Below the pieces are notes generated by a model. The model saw nothing but the letters and a program-made list of their open reading frames with translations, did not search any database and was not told where the DNA came from. DNA of 64,000 nt from Eledone cirrhosa. Taxonomy: Eukaryota. The stretch lies in NCBI GenBank assembly GCA_964016885.1, contig OZ024741.1, positions 118,110,001-118,174,000 of the forward strand, read 5' to 3'. Of the stretch, positions 17,701 through 51,600 are shown one piece after another (within the stretch, counting starts at the first letter, position 1; the number at the start of each line of letters is the position of its first letter). Both the position numbers and the translations under genes were made by a program.

Positions 17701-17912
17701 AGCCTGGGTATCGGAATTTCAGCGTATGTCTCATCTGTCGCAGCTATTATATTTTATCTTGGAATTATTGCGGGTAAGTAAATATTTCACACACCTGCCG
17801 TCAATAATCTGTCTCTCTGTCTGTCATGTCTTTGTCAGTCCTGTCACGGTCTGTCAGTATATCTGACTCTCATGTCTCTGTAAATCTATCTGTCTCTACC
17901 TCTCTCTGTCTC

Positions 17913-17952
<40 letters not shown>

Positions 17953-19828
17953 CTTTCTCTCTAGCTAGATGCGAACCTAATTTTTTATTTTTATTTTATA
18001 TATGTATAGGTTCTGGAACTTCATTCATATTCATCGCTGTTAATTGTGGTATTGCTACTTATTTTGATGAAAACAGTAAACAGTTGATGTCTTTCATTTC
18101 CATTGGAGGTGCAGTGGGTGCGATACTTTTCCCTGTTTTTGTTTCCAAACTCATAGATGTATATTCTTGGCGAGGTAGCCTTCTTCTTCTCTGTGCATTT
18201 ACCGTACATTTAATACCATGCGGTTTGTTGTATTCTGTAAAGAAAATACGCCCAAAACGAAAGCCCTCCGCGAGTAGTGAAGGGAGAATTAATTCTAATG
18301 GCAGATCCTACCAAAGTACAAACAAGACATCGCAAGAACATTTTACAAGTACAACGAAAATGAAATCGTATTTAGATCAAATATCAAATGATTCGAATAC
18401 GGCTGGCTGCCTGTCACCGAAAATGAATGGAAAACAAAATTACTCAAAATCTCATATGACGTCAGTACAAGATGATATCAACGTTGGACGTGAAAATGAC
18501 GGCCATTTACAAGAAGTCAACGGGCGCCTTTCAAACAACGATCCAGACCATGAAGTAGAAATGAGTCAAACACGTATACTATTTACTATGCTATCTGATA
18601 ATACCTATCTCCTACTTCTGCTTTCCATAACCGGAGCGGTGAGCTTTATTATGTCGTTTGCAACAATTTTGCCTGACTACTTTCTAAATCGCGGATTGGA
18701 TATAGAAGAAAGCACGCGGATCTTTGTAATCGCGTCCATTGGGAACATTCCAGCGCGTTTTCTTTCCAGTTGGTTACTTTACAAAAACATATTATCAGCT
18801 ATAACGATTTTCAACTTATCAGGATTAATAGGCGCTGCACTACTTTTATTGTATCCCTATTTAACGTCAACATCAATGCTTATTTTACTGTCCTTCATGA
18901 TTTTCGTGACATCAGGATTGGGGCTGGCCGTCTTCAGCGTGACACTCTTGGAAATATTTGATCATAGAATATATTCTTGCTCGCTTGGACTTGCTATGAC
19001 TTTGTCTGGTTTGGGTCTTCCTGTCAGTGGATATGTAATTAGTAAGTATATTTTCTGTATTTCTTTAGTTAGCACGTGCCTTAGTCGTTACAACAGTGGC
19101 ACATTGAGCCTGAATAGGCTCCTGGTTGAAAACTTTATTGGGGCTCTTGTATATTATGTATGGCAACGAACAAAAATTAATTAGAGCAATCTTTAAATAT
19201 TGATTTCTAATATAAGCACAAGGCCAGTAATTTGGGGGGAGGGGAAGTCGATTAAATCGACCCCGTAAGAATGAAAGGCAAAGTTAACCTCGGCGGGATT
19301 TTAAGGACTCTGGCTACAGTACGATCAGATCCCTTCCATTAATCTTCCACTGCAATAGGGTGTTGAGTTCACGATCATAAATTCGTGGGCTCGATTCCTA
19401 CACTCATAATCGCGCGTTTACACAAACTCGAGCGCTTATACTTACACATGCACACACGGAAGCGCTTACAGTTTCAAATTAGAAGTAAAGACATGTTGAA
19501 CTCCACTAAAATTCACGGTACCTTTTAGTGCATTATTTTGTCAATCTCTAATGGCTTCTGGTTACAGTTACATAAATGTCTCCGTGCGTGTATGTGTGGA
19601 TATATTTTGTCATTTTCTTTCTTTTTTTCTGTCCTATTTTTATATTTTTTCCAATGATATATTGTATATATTTTTCTTTCTTTATTTCTTACAGGTGCAC
19701 TCAAAAATCGATATGAAAGCTACCATCCTTGCTACTATTTTCTATCACTACTTTGTTACGTTACCATTTTACCTTCCCTTATCCACTACATGGTGACTTA
19801 TTGGAAAAGAAATAGAGTTACTATTTGA
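12119..19828 (+). CDS. MFS transporter, SLC16/monocarboxylate-transporter family; join(12119-12276,16232-16431,17630-17773,18010-19041,19695-19828) = 1668 nt, 555 aa
   Basis: All four introns are GT-AG with matching phases (2,1,1,1). Motifs include NTKYGIRCSALVGGILMSLG, IIFYLGIIAGSG and LIDVYSWRGSLLLL. Two hydrophobic halves are separated by a long polar loop. Confidence 0.92.
14935..15130 (-). mobile_element. tRNA-derived SINE (intron 1)
   Basis: Reverse complement of the family consensus seen at 30878-31072. Confidence 0.85.
15505..16140 (+). mobile_element. 5'-truncated RTE LINE 3' end (same family as 61762-64000)
   Basis: IRGIRCSILKRRLCWYGHVMR, shared 3' UTR repeats and a (GAT)n tail. 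Confidence 0.85.
16232..16431 (+). CDS. SLC16-family gene, coding exon 2
   Basis: Acceptor attccag|; FHRTFGRNGLTEKIIVGTSAFVANAILFGFRSSLAIYLIEF...GIYGII; donor G|gtaagt. Confidence 0.9.
16885..17085 (+). mobile_element. tRNA-derived SINE (intron 2)
   Basis: Family core gcctttcatccttacggggtcgataaaataaagtaccagt. Confidence 0.85.
17630..17773 (+). CDS. SLC16-family gene, coding exon 3
   Basis: Acceptor caacag|; VFTGSFNTKYGIRCSALVGG...LGIIA; donor G|gtaagt. Confidence 0.93.
18010..19041 (+). CDS. SLC16-family gene, coding exon 4
   Basis: Acceptor gtatag|; core of the 452-aa ORF; donor A|gtaagt. Confidence 0.95.
19695..19828 (+). CDS. SLC16-family gene, last coding exon
   Basis: Acceptor ttcttacag|; ALKNRYESYHPCYYFLSLLCYVTILPSLIHYMVTYWKRNRVTI* (last TM helix). 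Confidence 0.88.
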
Positions 19829-33599: not shown

Positions 33600-33990
33600 A
33601 TCATCATCATCATTAAAATCGCCATCGTTTAACGTCCATTTTCCACGCTAGCATGGGGTAGACGAGATGTCGTATTAAAGGTAAGTTGGATCAGGTAACT
33701 GTGTCTTACTGATATAGAACTGTTTCTGGCTAGATTTTTACATATGGATGCCCTTCCTAACGCTAACCACATTTATAATGTGCGCTTGGGGCTTTTTGCC
33801 GTGAATCCTACACGACCACTTTACAGTGTGGGCTGGGTGCTTTTTGTCGTAACTCCTACACGACCACTTTACAGTGTGGGCTGGGTGCTTTTTGTCGTAA
33901 CTCCTACACGACCACTTTACAGTGTGGGCTGGGTGCTTTTTGTCGTAACTCCTACACGACCACTTTACAGTGTGGGCTGGGTGCTTTTTG
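33600..33990 (-). mobile_element. RTE 3'-UTR-derived element with four 48-bp tandem repeats
   Basis: Unit cctacacgaccactttacagtgtgggctgggtgctttttgtcgtaact at 33806-33990. (GAT)n tail at 33601. Confidence 0.85.
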
Positions 33991-34894
33991 TTTATATAAA
34001 AACAAAACACACTATTAAAGGAAAGAAAAAAAGAAGAATCAAGCAAGGAAAGAAAAGGAGAGGGACAGCTGCTACAGCCCCGTCTGGGCAGTGCCTCAGC
34101 TACACCACGCGGACAAAATGGCAAAGGTGTCACCGCGGAAAATACCCAGGGACACCCGCTCTAACAGCCGCATACGTATAAACCAAAAGTAATCTATGGG
34201 CTTTCATTTAAGCAGCTGAGGTGTTGTCAGTTGCATATGGCGTTAGACTAGTTGAAAGGGAACCGCAGAGCTTTCACCTTTTAGGTGGGGGTGTATGCAG
34301 GTGTGTGGCGGGGATGCGTGGTATCGTAACTCCCGGGGAAGTAGCAGGGGCGTCATATTAACATATAGCGTTTCTAGTGCATTTTAAAATCAATCCTCTC
34401 CAGGTCTGATATATATATATATCGAATGTAGAAAAGTAACACACGAGTTGATATATATAAAAACAAATAGTAGAAAGGAAAAATATTTTTTTCAGTAGAT
34501 AATGCTGAAGAGATTCTTTCAGTGTAATATCAAAACATTTATTTATTTATAAAGAGGATATTTCCGCATTTAATAATGGTACCGGTTTCAGCATTATATG
34601 CATAGTCAACTGCGGATATGCATAATATGGTTAAGATCCATATTTATACAATTGATAATAATAAAAAGGGGAAGAAAAATTATTAATTTTTACATACATA
34701 TTTTGAGAGGAGAGTTCATATCTCTGTCTGTGGTTGTCCTTCTTTCTCTGTTAGTAGGTTAACAGAAGAATTGTAAATCTGGGTTTTTCGAATAATAATA
34801 ATATTCGATTCGTTTGCAATTATGCAAACAGCCTCCTAAGCCATGTCAGTAGAATGACCCGTCATTCTTGCTCTTGTGTTCGCATATAAGCAAA

Positions 34895-34941
34895 ACGGCA
34901 AACACTAATGTTTCTGGGTTATTACTCTTCATCAGTACCGT
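34895..34941 (-). ncRNA. Type I hammerhead motif with an imperfect stem II
   Basis: ACGGTA-CTGATGA-AGAGTAATAACCCA-GAA-ACA(ttag)TGT-T-TGCCGT, inside an element with inverted arms at about 34800-34908 and 35260-35369. Confidence 0.6.
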
Positions 34942-35370
34942 ATACTGTTTAACTGTCAGAGCTAGTGAAAATATATGATACTTTCTGGAATATACAATGA
35001 CTGATCGGCCTGATTTGCATATTAGCAGACTGACTGATCAGTCAGATCTGCATATTAGCAGACCCACTGATCAGCCAGATTTGTATATCAACAGACTGGC
35101 CAGTCAGTTTTATGTATACGAGCAATTAATGGCCGGCTTTGCCATAATCAAATAACTAACAAATAGTTTTATCGCTCTACAAGACTGAATACAAGAAATG
35201 TAAATCTGAGTTTATCGAATATTGATAATAATATTCGATTCGCTTGCAATTATGCAAAGACTAGTGTTTGCCATTCTGTTCATATGCCAACACAAGAACA
35301 AGAATGACGAAGTCATTCTACTGACATGGCTTAAGAGGGTGTTTGCATAATTGCAAACGAATCGAATATC

Positions 35371-35830
35371 GGATTGGCAGTATTGGTAGAGGGTCGGACG
35401 CCATGCTTTGACGTATTGAGTTACGGCTCTTGCCATTCTGAGTTCAAATCCCGCCAAGGTTAACTTTGCCTTTCATCCTTACGGGGTCGATAAAATAAAG
35501 TACCAGTAATGCACTGGGTAATTGCTGGCCTTGTGCCTAACGTAGAAACAATTATTAATATATCCCGCCGAGGTTAACTTTGCCTTTCATCCTTACGGGG
35601 TCGATAAAATAAAGTACCAGTAATGCACAGGGTAATTGCTGGCCTTGTGCCAAAAGTAGAAACAATTATTAATATTTGAAAAACTCAGACCCCGTAAGGA
35701 TGAAAGGCAAAGTTAACCCCGCCGGGGTTAACTTTGCATTTCATCCTTACGGGATCGATAAAATAAAGTACCAGTAATACACTGAGATAATTGCTAGCCT
35801 TGTGCCAAATGTAGAAACAATTATTAATAT
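35371..35830. mobile_element. SINE followed by partial tandem and inverted re-copies
   Basis: Three direct copies of the core and an inverted piece at 35688-35718. Confidence 0.85.
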
Positions 35831-36251: not shown

Positions 36252-36323
<72 letters not shown>

Positions 36324-36325
<2 letters not shown>

Positions 36326-36760
36326 ATTAAGTTAAAAATGTACATCCACATATGTATACTGAAATACTAGTATGCATATGAACCGGTACGTACTCGCGCT
36401 CTATGCAGGTTGGTCTGCCCACTACTAGTTTTCATAGAAGAGGCATATAGCGATGTGTGCTTTCGCGATTCTCTGGAGAGGCCGGAGGATGGGTGAGTAT
36501 TGCTGATGAGATGTAACAACATCGAAACTAGTCCAATATTCCTTGTCTGGCTTTCTGGAGAATGGAGGAAAGGTGTTTCCTCAAAAACCAGTATGACTCT
36601 AAGAACCGGTTTGTCTGTGTGTCTACATACGGAATAGCTGGACACTCACAGTAAAGTGACCAGTGAAAACTCGGTACATCTACATATGTACACGTGTGTG
36701 TATTCATATGCATACTAGTATTTCAGTATACATATGTGGATGTACATTTTTAACTTAATT
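36324..36760. mobile_element. Fold-back insertion with about 58-bp perfect inverted ends (PLE/retrozyme-like)
   Basis: aattaagttaaaaatgtacatccacatatgtatactgaaatactagtatgcatatgaa and its reverse complement at 36703-36760. Confidence 0.85.
36496..36540 (+). ncRNA. Canonical minimal type I hammerhead ribozyme
   Basis: AGTATTG-CTGATGA-GATGT(aaca)ACATC-GAA-ACTAGT-C-CAATATT. Every core nucleotide is intact; predicted GUC cleavage after 36533. Confidence 0.9.
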
Positions 36761-36856
36761 GTTTGAGCGCCAGTCATACAAAAGTGAGTTACAAACGAAA
36801 CGAAATTTAATTTCGTTTCGTTATTTGTTTTTATATATATATATATATATATATAT

Positions 36857-36918
<62 letters not shown>

Positions 36919-36931
36919 ATTTATATATATA

Positions 36932-37102
<171 letters not shown>

Positions 37103-37632
37103 ATATATATATTTAATACATTAACAGAGAAAGCTTTAATCAATACTCCGACCGGCTTCCGTCTCACTCAACAAACATTAGGATATACCTTAGTATAATC
37201 CCAATTATACGTCTGGGGTGCTAACTATACGTATTTTGAGGATAGTCAGTTGTATTATTTTATATGAGACATAATCAAAATACATCTCTCCTTCCAAACG
37301 ATCGTTTCATTATAAGTTTTCTACAAATTGGGAAAATAATGTCCTGGTTATGTAGAAGCCTACACATAGTCCGTAGGAATATATGTAGGTGGGCACTTAT
37401 AAATCATCAGTGGATGCCCGACAAATATCGATATAAAAAAAACCTTACCGATATTAATGTCCAGCGATGGTACCCCTCCGTGCTAGAATGACCGCCAAAT
37501 TTGAAATTCCAGCAGTCTCACAATGAGAAATCTCAAACTGCCATCAAGCGGAAAGGGGAGGTCATCGCAAAACATAAAATAATAAAATAATATGCACGCG
37601 GGTCAATTAATTCTTTCAATAATCTTAACCAT

Positions 37633-48664: not shown

Positions 48665-51600
48665 AATGGATGACTGTAGCAATTACCGTGGGATATCCAT
48701 TATGTCTGTTATAGGCAAGGTCTTATGTACTGGACAGGCTTCTTGACAGCATAGCTGATGAAATCCTTCCTAAATCTCAGTGTGACTTTAGAAATGGTAG
48801 GGAGACATCGAACAACAGACAGCTGCAAGAGAAATGCATTGAGTGGGCAGCTGATGGATCTGTATCAGGTGTTTATCGATCTGACGAAGGCTTTTGATAC
48901 AGTCAATAGAATTGTCCTAGGGAAAATTCTCAAGAAACCCGGGTGACCTGATAAATTTGTCTGTGTTGGGTGGTTTCCATGATAAAATGAAGGCAACTGT
49001 CAACGTGGGTGGTAAGCTCTCTGATCCCATTGTGGTTGAAAATGGTGTTAAGCAAGAAGACATTCCGGCGCTGACTTTATTTGCGCTGTACTTTGTTATG
49101 GTTTTCTTGGTGGTCTTTGAAGGAGTCTACATTAGATATCGAACAACGGGTAAATTGATCAATATCAGAAGGTTTGCTGTCATGACAAAGATATTTACAT
49201 CGCTGATATGCAAATTCCTGTATGCCGATGACTGTCATCGCTCATTCCGAGAGTGACATGCAACGTCTTATGGATTCTTTTTCGAAAGTATGCAGTGTAT
49301 TGGGCTTAATAATCAGTCTGAAAAAGACTGTAGTGATGTATCAACCTGCACTAGGCAAAGCTTACTCTACGTCAAACATATATGTCTATGGTCAGAAATT
49401 GAAAGTCGTGGATAAGTTTGTATATCTAGGCAGCACTGTGAATGTGACCAATACTCTAGATCAGGGGTCACCAAACTACGGCCCGCGGGCCGGATCAGGC
49501 CCGCGACGTCAGTTCATCAGGCCCGCCGATGGTACTTGCATTTGCGTGATAAAACGGATGGAACACGAGATGTTTCTAATTCAATGTCTTTTTCATTTTC
49601 AGATCCCATTTTCTTCACCCTTTATTATGGCTACTAAGAAAAGAAAAGTGGACGCCAAGTGTCGCGTTTTCAATGAAGAATGGGGAGTAAAGTACTTCTT
49701 TGTGGAAACAAAGGACCAGAAAGCTAGTTGCGTGGTATGCAGCGAAATTGTTGCCGTTTTGAAAGAGCACAATCTTCGGCGTCACTATGAAACAAAACAT
49801 CTATCCACATATTCAAAGTTTTCTGGAAAGTTACGCTCTGAGAAATATGAGTCCATGAAACGTGGTTTAGAAACTCAAAGAAATCTCTTCACGAGAAAGT
49901 TTGCTGAAAATGAATCTGTCACTCGTACAAGTTACAAAATAGTGCATAAGTTGGCAGAGCGAGGAAAACCGTTTACTGATGGCAACTTCATCAAAGAGTG
50001 TATGATGGAAGCAGCAAATGACTTGTGTCTTGAGAATGCCGATTTGTTTGGAAGTATCAGCCTTTAGGCAAGTTCAGTTGTGCGGAGAACAGAAGAACTT
50101 GGAGAGAACATAGTGCTACAGATACGCGAGAAAGCTAGGAACTTGTGGTATTCTCTGGCGCTGGATGAGTCTACTGATCTCTCGAGTACGTCACAACTCT
50201 CGTATTCATTCGTGGTGTCAATTTGGACTTTCAGATAATGGAAGAGTTGGCATCCGTTTGCTGCATGCATGGAACAACAACTGGAAAAGACATTTTCGTG
50301 GAAGTGCAGAAAACTTTGCAAGGCTATAACCTTCAGTGGAATCAGCTTCGAGGTGTTACAGTTGATGGAGGAAAAAACATGGCTGGAGTGAGGAAGGGTC
50401 TGGTCGGGCAAATCAGGACTCTGTTGGAAGATTTGCAAATTCCGGGCGCTCTGTTCATACACTACATCATACATCAGCAAGCACTCTGTGGGAAAGACTT
50501 GGATATTTCTTGTGTACTGAAACCAGTCGTTTCTGCTGTGAACTTCATTCGGGACATGCACTCAATAACCGTCAATTCCAGGCTTTTCTTGAAGAAATTG
50601 ATTCTGATTTCTGTGACTTGCCTTATCACACAGCAGTGAGGTGGCTCAGTTGCGGTAAAGTCCTGTTTCGTTTTTACAAGCTCCGAAACGAAATAGATGT
50701 TTTTCTCACTGAAAAATATAGAGCTGATCCACAGCTGTCAGATCCTACCTGGCTGTCAAAGTTGACATTTTTGGTCGACATCACATCCCACATGAATGAA
50801 CTGAACTTGAAACTCCAGGGAAAGGATAACCTCGTCTGTGATCTCTACAGAATCATCAAAGGATTTCGGAGAAAGCTGTCAATGTTTGAAGCACAACTGG
50901 AAGGAGAAAACTTCTCTCATTTTCACTGTTTCAAAAAGTTTTGCGCTACAGTTGCTGAAGATGTCAACCTCGATTTTCCTAAAAAGATTATTCGTGACTT
51001 GAAGAAGCATTTTTTGGAGAGATTTTCAGATCTCGACAGAATTGAGAGTGACATTCTTCTGTTCCAGAATCCATTTGATTGTAACCTTGATGATGTGCCA
51101 GTTGAACTACAGTTGGAGTTCATTGATTTGCAAGCAAATTACTTGTTGAAAGAGAAGCACAGAGAAGGAAAACTTGTTGAATTTTACTGCTTCTTACCTG
51201 ATGTTGAGTATCCGAAATTGAAGAAATTTGCCGCTGGTATGGCATCATTGTTTGGAACAACTTATGTCTGTGAGCAAACATTTTCAAAAATGAAGTATGT
51301 GAAGTCAACACATCGAACGAGATTGACTGATGAACATTTGAAAGCAATTCTCTTGATTGGATGCAGCAATTCCAAACCAAACATTGATGATATCTTGAAA
51401 GCCAAACGTCAGTTTCACAAATCTCACTAACCTTTTTGCTGCTTAGTTTGTAAGATTCGGATATGTGCACACTAGGTCTGATGTAACTATATTTTTGCTA
51501 ACGTCGCCTTCTTTGATAACTTTTTAGTAAATAAATATGTTGGTTGTCTTTGTTTTTTGTGCATTGCACGCCACTCACCCATGATTAACACGGAATGCTA

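What the first reader, a model, noticed from the sequence alone, without database searches (positions are those of the whole stretch)
36324..36760. Perfect minimal hammerhead inside a young non-coding fold-back element
Seen: a flawless 45-nt type I hammerhead (36496-36540) with palindromic ACTAGT stem III, inside a 437-bp non-coding insertion whose roughly 58-bp inverted ends are identical. A degenerate second core may follow (CTGGAGA...GAGGAAA/TTTCCTC...AAAAC, about 36554-36592). Established: minimal hammerheads with a palindromic stem III in PLEs and retrozymes cleave best as dimers. Inference: a recently active non-autonomous ribozyme retroelement.
Basis: partly seen in the sequence, partly recalled or inferred. 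Interest (0 to 1): 0.72.

Follow-up and report, generated by a model that had tools for sequence, protein, structure and literature searches.

The report
RNA-edited copy of ribozyme retroelement
This is a truncated, mirror-image insertion of an abundant small repeat that carries a predicted self-cutting RNA motif; it differs from its closest sibling only by 17 A-to-G changes, most likely RNA-editing marks copied back into the chromosome, and such marks in other copies suggest that these repeats are pasted in from a single, probably circular, RNA.

Summary
The hammerhead (36496-36540) and the identical 58-bp inverted ends are real, but this is not a 437-bp element with terminal repeats. It is a 510-bp truncated insertion (36325-36834) of a 465-nt tandem monomer with at least 8,876 hammerhead copies and 1,952 ends in (TA)n: a non-LTR retrozyme. 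Most insertions are back-to-back arms with a ~70-nt tail on one end only, the Penelope-like (PLE) footprint. The 'second core' is not supported. This copy differs from sibling L041 by 17 of 17 A>G changes on the ribozyme strand, none after G: likely ADAR edits fixed by reverse transcription. Other copies carry up to 62 such changes. Some arrays repeat one private edit set in every monomer of both arms, which fits rolling-circle copying of one edited circle. In L078 a 46-edit tract stops at the predicted cut site. Against: some arrays show later local duplication; hyper-edited copies are rare (0 of 77 unselected loci); no RNA data, cleavage test or partner PLE. This copy has one ribozyme and is likely a dead end. 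The scan reached the shared-edit reading before on another copy (e1-8803518).

The parts
36325..36834 (.). Whole insertion (510 bp): short inverted arm plus long direct arm of the 465-nt monomer, inside a (TA)n tract
36325..36382 (-). Inverted, tail-less arm = monomer positions 408-465 (no A>G changes at its 18 A)
36379..36382 (.). 4-nt microhomology at the junction of the two arms
36379..36760 (+). Direct arm, monomer positions 84-465 (5'-truncated)
36761..36834 (+).
36496..36540 (+). Type I hammerhead; catalytic core unedited; predicted cut after C36533; palindromic helix III at 36527-36532
36396..36497 (+). Dense A>G cluster, 15 changes: 36396, 36408, 36409, 36428, 36440, 36442, 36450, 36455, 36465, 36475, 36480, 36487, 36491, 36495, 36497 (two more at 36564 and 36765)
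36402..36451 (+). Possible snRNA-type promoter module (octamer-like box, TATA-like box 44 nt later), conserved in sister family B and resembling the -77/-30 boxes of this genome's U6 genes; the octamer is broken here by two A>G changes. A lead only.
36252..36324 (.). Left (TA)n target tract
36835..37113 (.). Right (TA)n target tract

Best explanation
This is a truncated two-armed insertion of a 465-nt hammerhead retrozyme, likely pasted into a (TA)n tract by a Penelope-like reverse transcriptase from an RNA that had likely been A-to-I edited by ADAR. Shown: tandem monomer, copy number, (TA)n target, back-to-back arms with a tail on one end only, strand-specific A>G clusters that avoid a 5' G, and edit sets shared by all monomers and both arms of single arrays. 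Inferred cycle: arrays are transcribed; hammerheads cut as dimers through the palindromic helix III; monomers are ligated into structured circles; ADAR edits some; a PLE protein nicks both strands of (TA)n and primes two cDNAs on the same sense RNA at two fixed sites about 70 nt apart (monomer ~465-469 and 74); each cDNA runs round the template for an independent length, and the two are joined by microhomology. This copy has one ribozyme, lacks monomer positions 75-83 and has edits in the stem I bulge and the octamer, so it is predicted to be a dead end.
For: Family: 465-bp period; 8,876 hammerhead matches; 1,952 tail ends joined to (TA)5, control 0. Core positions are nearly invariant (0-3 changes each in ~257 monomers; C17 is U in many). 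6 of 17 pairs change on both sides across families A and B, 95% of cells paired, slid controls 34-51%. Circular fold -151.5 kcal/mol vs -97.6 +/- 5.2 in 60 shuffles. PLE footprint: 53 of 71 resolved unselected tailed loci have an inverted tail-less other end and none has two tails; 10 of 11 fold-backs with both ends seen have one of each; this matches PMC8557442, PMC3846280 and the two start sites of PMC11167929. RT + GIY-YIG ORFs exist in the genome. Editing: window vs L041 17 of 17 differences A>G; the edited 25-mer is unique in the genome; 0 of 16 cluster edits follow G vs 15 of 59 A (p=0.006); 11 of 17 edited A are in predicted A-U pairs; only 2 of 17 are in CpG. L078: 46 of 46 A>G, 0 after G (p=1e-4). 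L245: 62 of 63. Unselected loci: A>G is 16 of 39 array-wide private variants vs 27 of 260 single-monomer variants (p=8e-6); A>G:T>C 16:4 (p=0.012) vs 27:30. An ADAR2-like gene is present. One template: arms share the haplotype in 48 of 49 loci while 90% of random pairs differ; arm lengths are uncorrelated (rho 0.10). L160 repeats 9 A>G across its 17 pieces and L241-244 repeat ~16 in both arms, each seen at one locus only.
Against: No RNA evidence of any kind was obtained, so transcription, cleavage and circles are unshown. Of 177 within-array variants in 19 arrays, 47 are shared by subsets of monomers, some periodically, so local duplication after insertion also occurs (also L048, L044). L245 shows only weak 5'-G avoidance (7 of 62 vs 27 of 147, p=0.08) and edits on both sides of the cut site. 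L236 is ambiguous (11 A>G, 13 other). Several window G (monomer 5, 114, 155, 185, 192, 196) also occur as subfamily alleles, and G185 is the majority allele. No locus with more than 3 private A>G among 77 unselected loci; the strong cases came from patterns that demanded G. No autonomous PLE sharing sequence with the unit among 50 GIY-YIG loci. 15 of 53 junctions lie within 40 nt of a mirror point (9 expected, p=0.05), so some arms may be snap-back copies. In bioRxiv 10.64898/2026.07.22.740005, 8 of 9 predicted Xenopus dimers did not cleave in vitro.
Confidence: 0.78

Rival explanations
1. The edits are real RNA edits, but long homogeneous arrays grew after insertion by unequal crossing-over or conversion from one or two edited monomers; the template was a linear transcript and no circle is needed.
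For: Periodic shared variants in L124, L143, L151 and block duplications in L048. L078 mixes edited and unedited monomers. The satellite-expansion model is argued in bioRxiv 10.64898/2026.07.22.740005, and hammerhead cleavage was dispensable for PLE insertion in vitro (PMC11167929).
Against: The least diverged arrays are already long (L097 12 monomers at 0.0%, L114 11 at 0.04%, L160 14 at 0.03%) and 130 of 177 variants are singletons. Both arms would have to expand separately yet carry the same edits; 18 of 54 fold-backs have more than one monomer on both arms. Identical multi-monomer arrays sit at many dispersed loci.
Confidence: 0.2
2. The inverted arm is made by snap-back (self-primed) DNA copying of the first cDNA rather than by a second priming event on the RNA.
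For: Same haplotype in both arms (48 of 49); a few junctions fall exactly in palindromes, with a mild excess near the mirror point. Self-priming is proposed in PMC3846280.
Against: 38 of 53 junctions have unrelated coordinates on the two arms, including this one (408 vs 84). Either arm can be the longer (20 vs 29). The two outer ends are two fixed, different sites. In L078 one arm is hyper-edited and the other is not, though a 600-nt foreign insert separates them.
Confidence: 0.2
3. The A>G cluster is not RNA editing: it is an older G-rich subfamily state, CpG decay in the rest of the family, reverse-transcriptase error or an assembly artefact.
For: Some G alleles exist in older subfamilies.
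Against: The window matches the young L041 haplotype at every other position; the G-rich 25-mer is unique; 2 of 17 in CpG; one-strand bias and 5'-G avoidance; edited and unedited siblings coexist in one insertion (L078); errors would not recur at the same sites in every monomer of an array.
Confidence: 0.07
4. It is a MITE-like DNA transposon with 58-bp terminal inverted repeats that happens to carry a hammerhead.
For: Perfect 58-bp inverted ends in a TA context.
Against: Homology runs 74 nt past the right 'repeat'; inverted-arm length ranges from about 10 nt to over 5 kb among siblings; head-to-tail arrays and RNA-type edits.
Confidence: 0.01

Closest known systems
Metazoan non-LTR retrozymes (Cervera and de la Pena 2020, PMC7229834, parts 2-4 of 6 and passages read; Li, Clavereau and Pollet, bioRxiv 10.64898/2026.07.22.740005, parts 1-3 of 5 read)
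   Same: Non-coding tandem monomers with one type I hammerhead each, GC under 50%, highly self-paired predicted circle, many dispersed arrays, PLEs in the same genome.
   Different: 465 nt, slightly above the 150-450 bp of PMC7229834 but within the 51-972 bp of the preprint. Back-to-back arms, one-sided tail, (TA)n targeting and genomic A>G clusters are not in the parts read (0 hits for 'inverted' or 'microsatellite' in PMC7229834; editing is mentioned once as a possible cause of circRNA heterogeneity). Expression and circles are untested here.
EN+ Penelope-like element insertions (Craig et al. 2021, PMC8557442, passages; Arkhipova et al. 2013, PMC3846280, passages; Frangieh et al. 2024, PMC11167929, parts 1-2 of 4)
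   Same: Partial tandems, inverted 5'-truncated copy, tail often on one end only, microsatellite or AT-rich targets, two fixed initiation sites, microhomology junctions.
   Different: No ORF; tail about 70-74 nt rather than 30-40; long perfect multimers on both arms; no sequence match to a pLTR of an autonomous element was found.
PLE min-HHR versus canonical metazoan type I hammerhead (Cervera and de la Pena 2014, PMC4209133, passages)
   Same: Short palindromic helix III predicted to need a dimer.
   Different: Helix I 7 bp with a conserved bulge and helix II 5 bp fit the canonical description better than the min-HHR (helix II 7-8 bp, helix I 4-5 bp, no helix III).
Deaminase scars in genomic retroelements (APOBEC G-to-A; Knisbacher and Levanon, PMC4866542, abstract start and passages) and ADAR hyper-editing of repeat RNA (Porath et al. 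2017, PMC5625713, passages)
   Same: Clustered, one-directional, strand-biased changes fixed in retroelement copies; depletion of G upstream is the ADAR motif shared across animals.
   Different: Here the change is A>G on the transcript strand, so it points to RNA editing before reverse transcription rather than DNA editing.

Membership tests
Non-LTR retrozyme | Short non-coding monomer in head-to-tail tandem arrays | tested here: met
   465-bp period; 46 of 77 unselected loci span at least two monomer lengths. The window copy itself is under one monomer.
Non-LTR retrozyme | One type I hammerhead per monomer, conserved core and covarying stems | tested here: met
Non-LTR retrozyme | Highly self-paired predicted circular monomer | tested here: met
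   -151.5 kcal/mol, z about -10 against 60 shuffles
Non-LTR retrozyme | No LTR, PBS or PPT architecture | tested here: met
   Arrays end at monomer 74 or ~465-469 directly in (TA)n; no dedicated PBS search was run.
Non-LTR retrozyme | Self-cleavage of the RNA | not testable with these tools
   Indirect only: the L078 edit tract ends 7 nt before the predicted cut, with 0 of 73 A edited after it.
Non-LTR retrozyme | Expressed as linear and circular monomer RNA | tested here: inconclusive
   No suitable RNA data; genomic A>G clusters imply a transcript of the ribozyme strand but not its form.
PLE-mobilised insertion | Inverted 5'-truncated copy adjoining the direct copy | tested here: met
   53 of 71 resolved loci
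PLE-mobilised insertion | Tail on one end only | tested here: met
   0 of 71 with two tails; 10 of 11 with one of each; tail longer than the published 30-40 bp
PLE-mobilised insertion | Shared terminal sequence with an autonomous PLE | tested here: inconclusive
   None among 50 loci drawn from 150 scored of 10,596 GIY-YIG candidates
PLE-mobilised insertion | Target-site duplication | not testable with these tools
   Insertion inside (TA)n hides it; no empty allele at hand
ADAR hyper-editing | Clustered A>G on the transcript strand, not T>C | tested here: met
   17 of 17, 46 of 46, 62 of 63; 16:4 in unselected array-wide variants
ADAR hyper-editing | Depletion of G 5' of edited A | tested here: met
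   Window p=0.006, L078 p=1e-4; L245 weaker, p=0.08
ADAR hyper-editing | Same sites edited in RNA relative to DNA | not testable with these tools
   No RNA reads available
PLE min-HHR (Cervera 2014) | No helix III, long helix II (7-8 bp), short helix I (4-5 bp) | tested here: not met
   Helix II 5 bp, helix I 7 bp, palindromic helix III present
MITE / TIR transposon | Fixed-length terminal inverted repeats bounding the element | tested here: not met

The most novel reading that the evidence does not exclude
ADAR marks act as single-molecule barcodes that record the whole retrozyme cycle in DNA: a Penelope-type RT primes twice on one sense-strand circular RNA and rolls round it to write both arms, and it can switch to another molecule exactly at the ribozyme cut (L078), which would be in-genome evidence of hammerhead cleavage in the germ line. 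Edits that hit the octamer-like box and the ribozyme would make ADAR a restriction factor for retrozymes.
Probability: 0.45. Interest if true: 0.8.

Novelty: new member of a known kind. Interest (0 to 1): 0.6.

Why it matters
How animal retrozymes move is proposed rather than shown: PMC7229834 names PLEs as a strong candidate and tandem cDNA from circles as a hypothesis. PMC3846280 leaves open whether PLEs copy a sense or antisense template and how the inverted repeats form. This family gives thousands of very young insertions with the PLE footprint, and the A>G marks report the template strand (sense) and whether monomers and arms came from one molecule. That makes both questions testable from genome and RNA sequence. 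It also shows RNA editing feeding heritable sequence change in a repeat family. I found no paper joining retrozymes and ADAR-edited genomic copies in ten searches; the library lacks most subscription journals and I read no supplements, so prior reports are possible.

Tried and rejected
Second hammerhead core: rejected. TIR/MITE reading: rejected. Rfam at gathering level: no hit. Sequencing runs: no RNA holder listed; contigs of X1, X4, X5, X6 and X12 hold the unit or parts of it but are of unrecorded kind, and X23/X24 gave no reads, so they say nothing on expression. Autonomous partner: 50 GIY-YIG loci compared, only chance-level or nested matches; the L195/L199 family ends in (TA)n and has a palindromic-helix hammerhead but shares no sequence. 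U1 promoter likeness: none; U6 likeness is partial, spacing 43-44 vs 47-49 nt. A pattern for edits in the 3' part found nothing. The descriptor count and the L078 count at the end were script errors, redone; one search analysed only the tail of L245, redone. The monomer/dimer energy test did not model the dimer; it shows only that closing helix III in a monomer is unfavourable and that the palindrome pairs at -4.8 kcal/mol. The reverse count is inflated by overlapping matches and was not used. Rows left out: L112 (duplicate of L111) throughout; 5 edge loci and L109 (wrong side fetched) from the end tally; L113, L119 and L161 from the junction test.

Full report
Observation. It is the only descriptor hit in the window and 500 shuffled windows gave none. 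Rfam HH9 matches below its gathering score. The 58-bp inverted arms are identical. The proposed second core is not a hammerhead: it lacks A6 and the GAAA, varies in the family and pairs in the extended stem I.

The family. A search of the own genome (G000, 3.0 Gb) returned 516 matches from only 33 of 459 candidates, spaced 465 bp apart. Against a monomer from L028 the window reads: inverted 408-465, then direct 84-465 and 1-74, so the insertion is 36325-36834. A pattern over the ribozyme gives 8,876 copies, and the position-74 end joined to (TA)5 occurs 1,952 times. Both are lower bounds. Core bases are almost invariant in about 257 monomers, while C17 is U in the commonest subfamily. A sister family B (483-511 nt, about 62% identical) keeps the core, the palindrome and the bulge; 6 of 17 pairs change on both sides (nine related rows, so not independent). 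That the host is a cephalopod is my recall of its SINE, not a call result.

Architecture. I fetched 78 of the first 80 places listed and dropped one duplicate. Of 77 loci, 6 were unresolved. Of 71, 53 have an inverted other end at monomer ~465-469, 13 are direct only, 5 are other, and none has two tails. In the set not chosen by tail, 10 of 11 fold-backs with both ends visible have one tailed and one tail-less end. This is the PLE pattern of PMC8557442 and PMC3846280. PMC11167929 shows that a PLE protein nicks both strands of AT-rich DNA and starts at two internal RNA sites that delimit the tail. The two arms share their haplotype in 48 of 49 loci (90% of random pairs differ), their lengths are uncorrelated, and 38 of 53 junctions are far from a mirror point. 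That favours two primings on one RNA, with snap-back possible in a minority. The genome holds RT plus GIY-YIG ORFs of up to 1,096 codons, but I found no partner sharing sequence with the unit.

The edits. The window copy differs from L041 at 17 positions, all A>G on the ribozyme strand. None follows a G (cluster p=0.006), 11 are in predicted A-U pairs, 2 are in CpG, and the edited 25-mer is unique. G depletion upstream is the motif shared by animal ADARs (PMC5625713), and an ADAR2-like gene is present. Patterns demanding G found more: L078 with 46 of 46 A>G against its own unedited sibling monomer, L245 with 62 of 63, L241-244 with about 16 and L160 with 9, and an ambiguous L236. These were selected, so they give no frequency; none of 77 unselected loci had more than 3 private A>G. 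In those unselected loci A>G makes up 16 of 39 variants shared by a whole array but 27 of 260 single-monomer variants (p=8e-6), with a strand bias only in the first class. Caution: six of the window's G also occur as subfamily alleles, and L245 shows weak 5'-G avoidance.

What the edits say about the template. All arms show A>G in their own sense direction, so the template was the ribozyme strand. L160 and L241-244 repeat one edit set in every monomer of both arms and were seen at one locus each (8 of 108 matches were not listed). Independent editing of a linear multimer would not give that; rolling round one edited circle would. The rival is local expansion after insertion, which does occur: 47 of 177 within-array variants are shared by subsets. 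But the least diverged arrays are already long. In L078 the edited tract ends at monomer 231, the cut is predicted after 238, and none of the next 73 A is edited, as if RT crossed from one self-cleaved molecule to another. The window shows 15 of 52 A edited before the cut and 2 of 92 after (p=4e-6), though its last dense edit lies 36 nt before the cut. L245 has no such boundary. This step rests on one clear case.

This copy. It has a single ribozyme with no partner in cis, lacks positions 75-83, has G at two stem I positions that are A in all 8 other haplotypes, and has a broken octamer-like box. That box, with a TATA-like box 43-44 nt on, is conserved in families A and B and resembles this genome's U6 upstream boxes at -77 and -30; I treat it as a lead. 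The copy is very young and likely inert.

Verdict. A new member of the non-LTR retrozymes, moved with a PLE footprint. The added value is the RNA-editing record, which bears on the proposed but unshown circle-and-PLE cycle. Transcription, cleavage, circles and the partner enzyme remain inferred. Earlier notes of this scan reached similar readings on other DNA; I had formed and tested mine before reading them, and they are not independent support. One search returned nothing.

Noticed in passing
window 34760-35390: Older ~430-nt repeat on the minus strand with a hammerhead-like core near 34930, an octamer at 35021 and an inverted piece at 35256-35369; 3,707 candidates in the genome, best relatives 86-91% identical. 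Probably a third, decayed retrozyme-like family.
   Followed up: partly
L202:7818-9901; also L058, L075, L122, L137, L155, L186, L203: Sister retrozyme family B (483-511 nt, ~62% identical) with the same hammerhead palindrome, an internal (TA)n and fold-back arrays.
   Followed up: partly
L078:1804-2398: About 600 nt of foreign sequence with a ~60-nt direct repeat lies between the two arms; possible template jump to another RNA or a later insertion.
   Followed up: no
L043 right end: The short arm runs on at monomer position 18 into sequence like the family at window ~35000; possible chimera of two families.
   Followed up: no
L195, L196, L199, L205: PLE family (95-99% protein identity) with a small palindromic-helix hammerhead in its 3' region and two end points about 50 nt apart, some in (TA)n; candidate helper by target only.
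   Followed up: partly
family monomer position 238: The commonest subfamily has a GUU rather than GUC cleavage triplet together with a compensatory swap in stem II.
   Followed up: no
L124, L143, L151: Shared variants recur with period 6, 2 and 4 monomers: block duplication, multimeric circles or assembly.
   Followed up: no
window 17808-19184 +: Long exon-like frame matching a major facilitator superfamily transporter; whether the insertion lies in its intron was not checked.
   Followed up: no
window 49207-51430 +: hAT-type transposase remnants (Spin-doc zinc finger, hAT dimerisation domain).
   Followed up: no
runs X1-X20: Parts of the unit are held by runs labelled as 16 organisms in 15 studies; only X1, X4, X5, X6 and X12 were laid and showed it, X4-X6 at low depth. 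Relatives, contamination or transfer were not told apart.
   Followed up: partly
window 33772-34011: 48-nt tandem repeat, about five copies.
   Followed up: no
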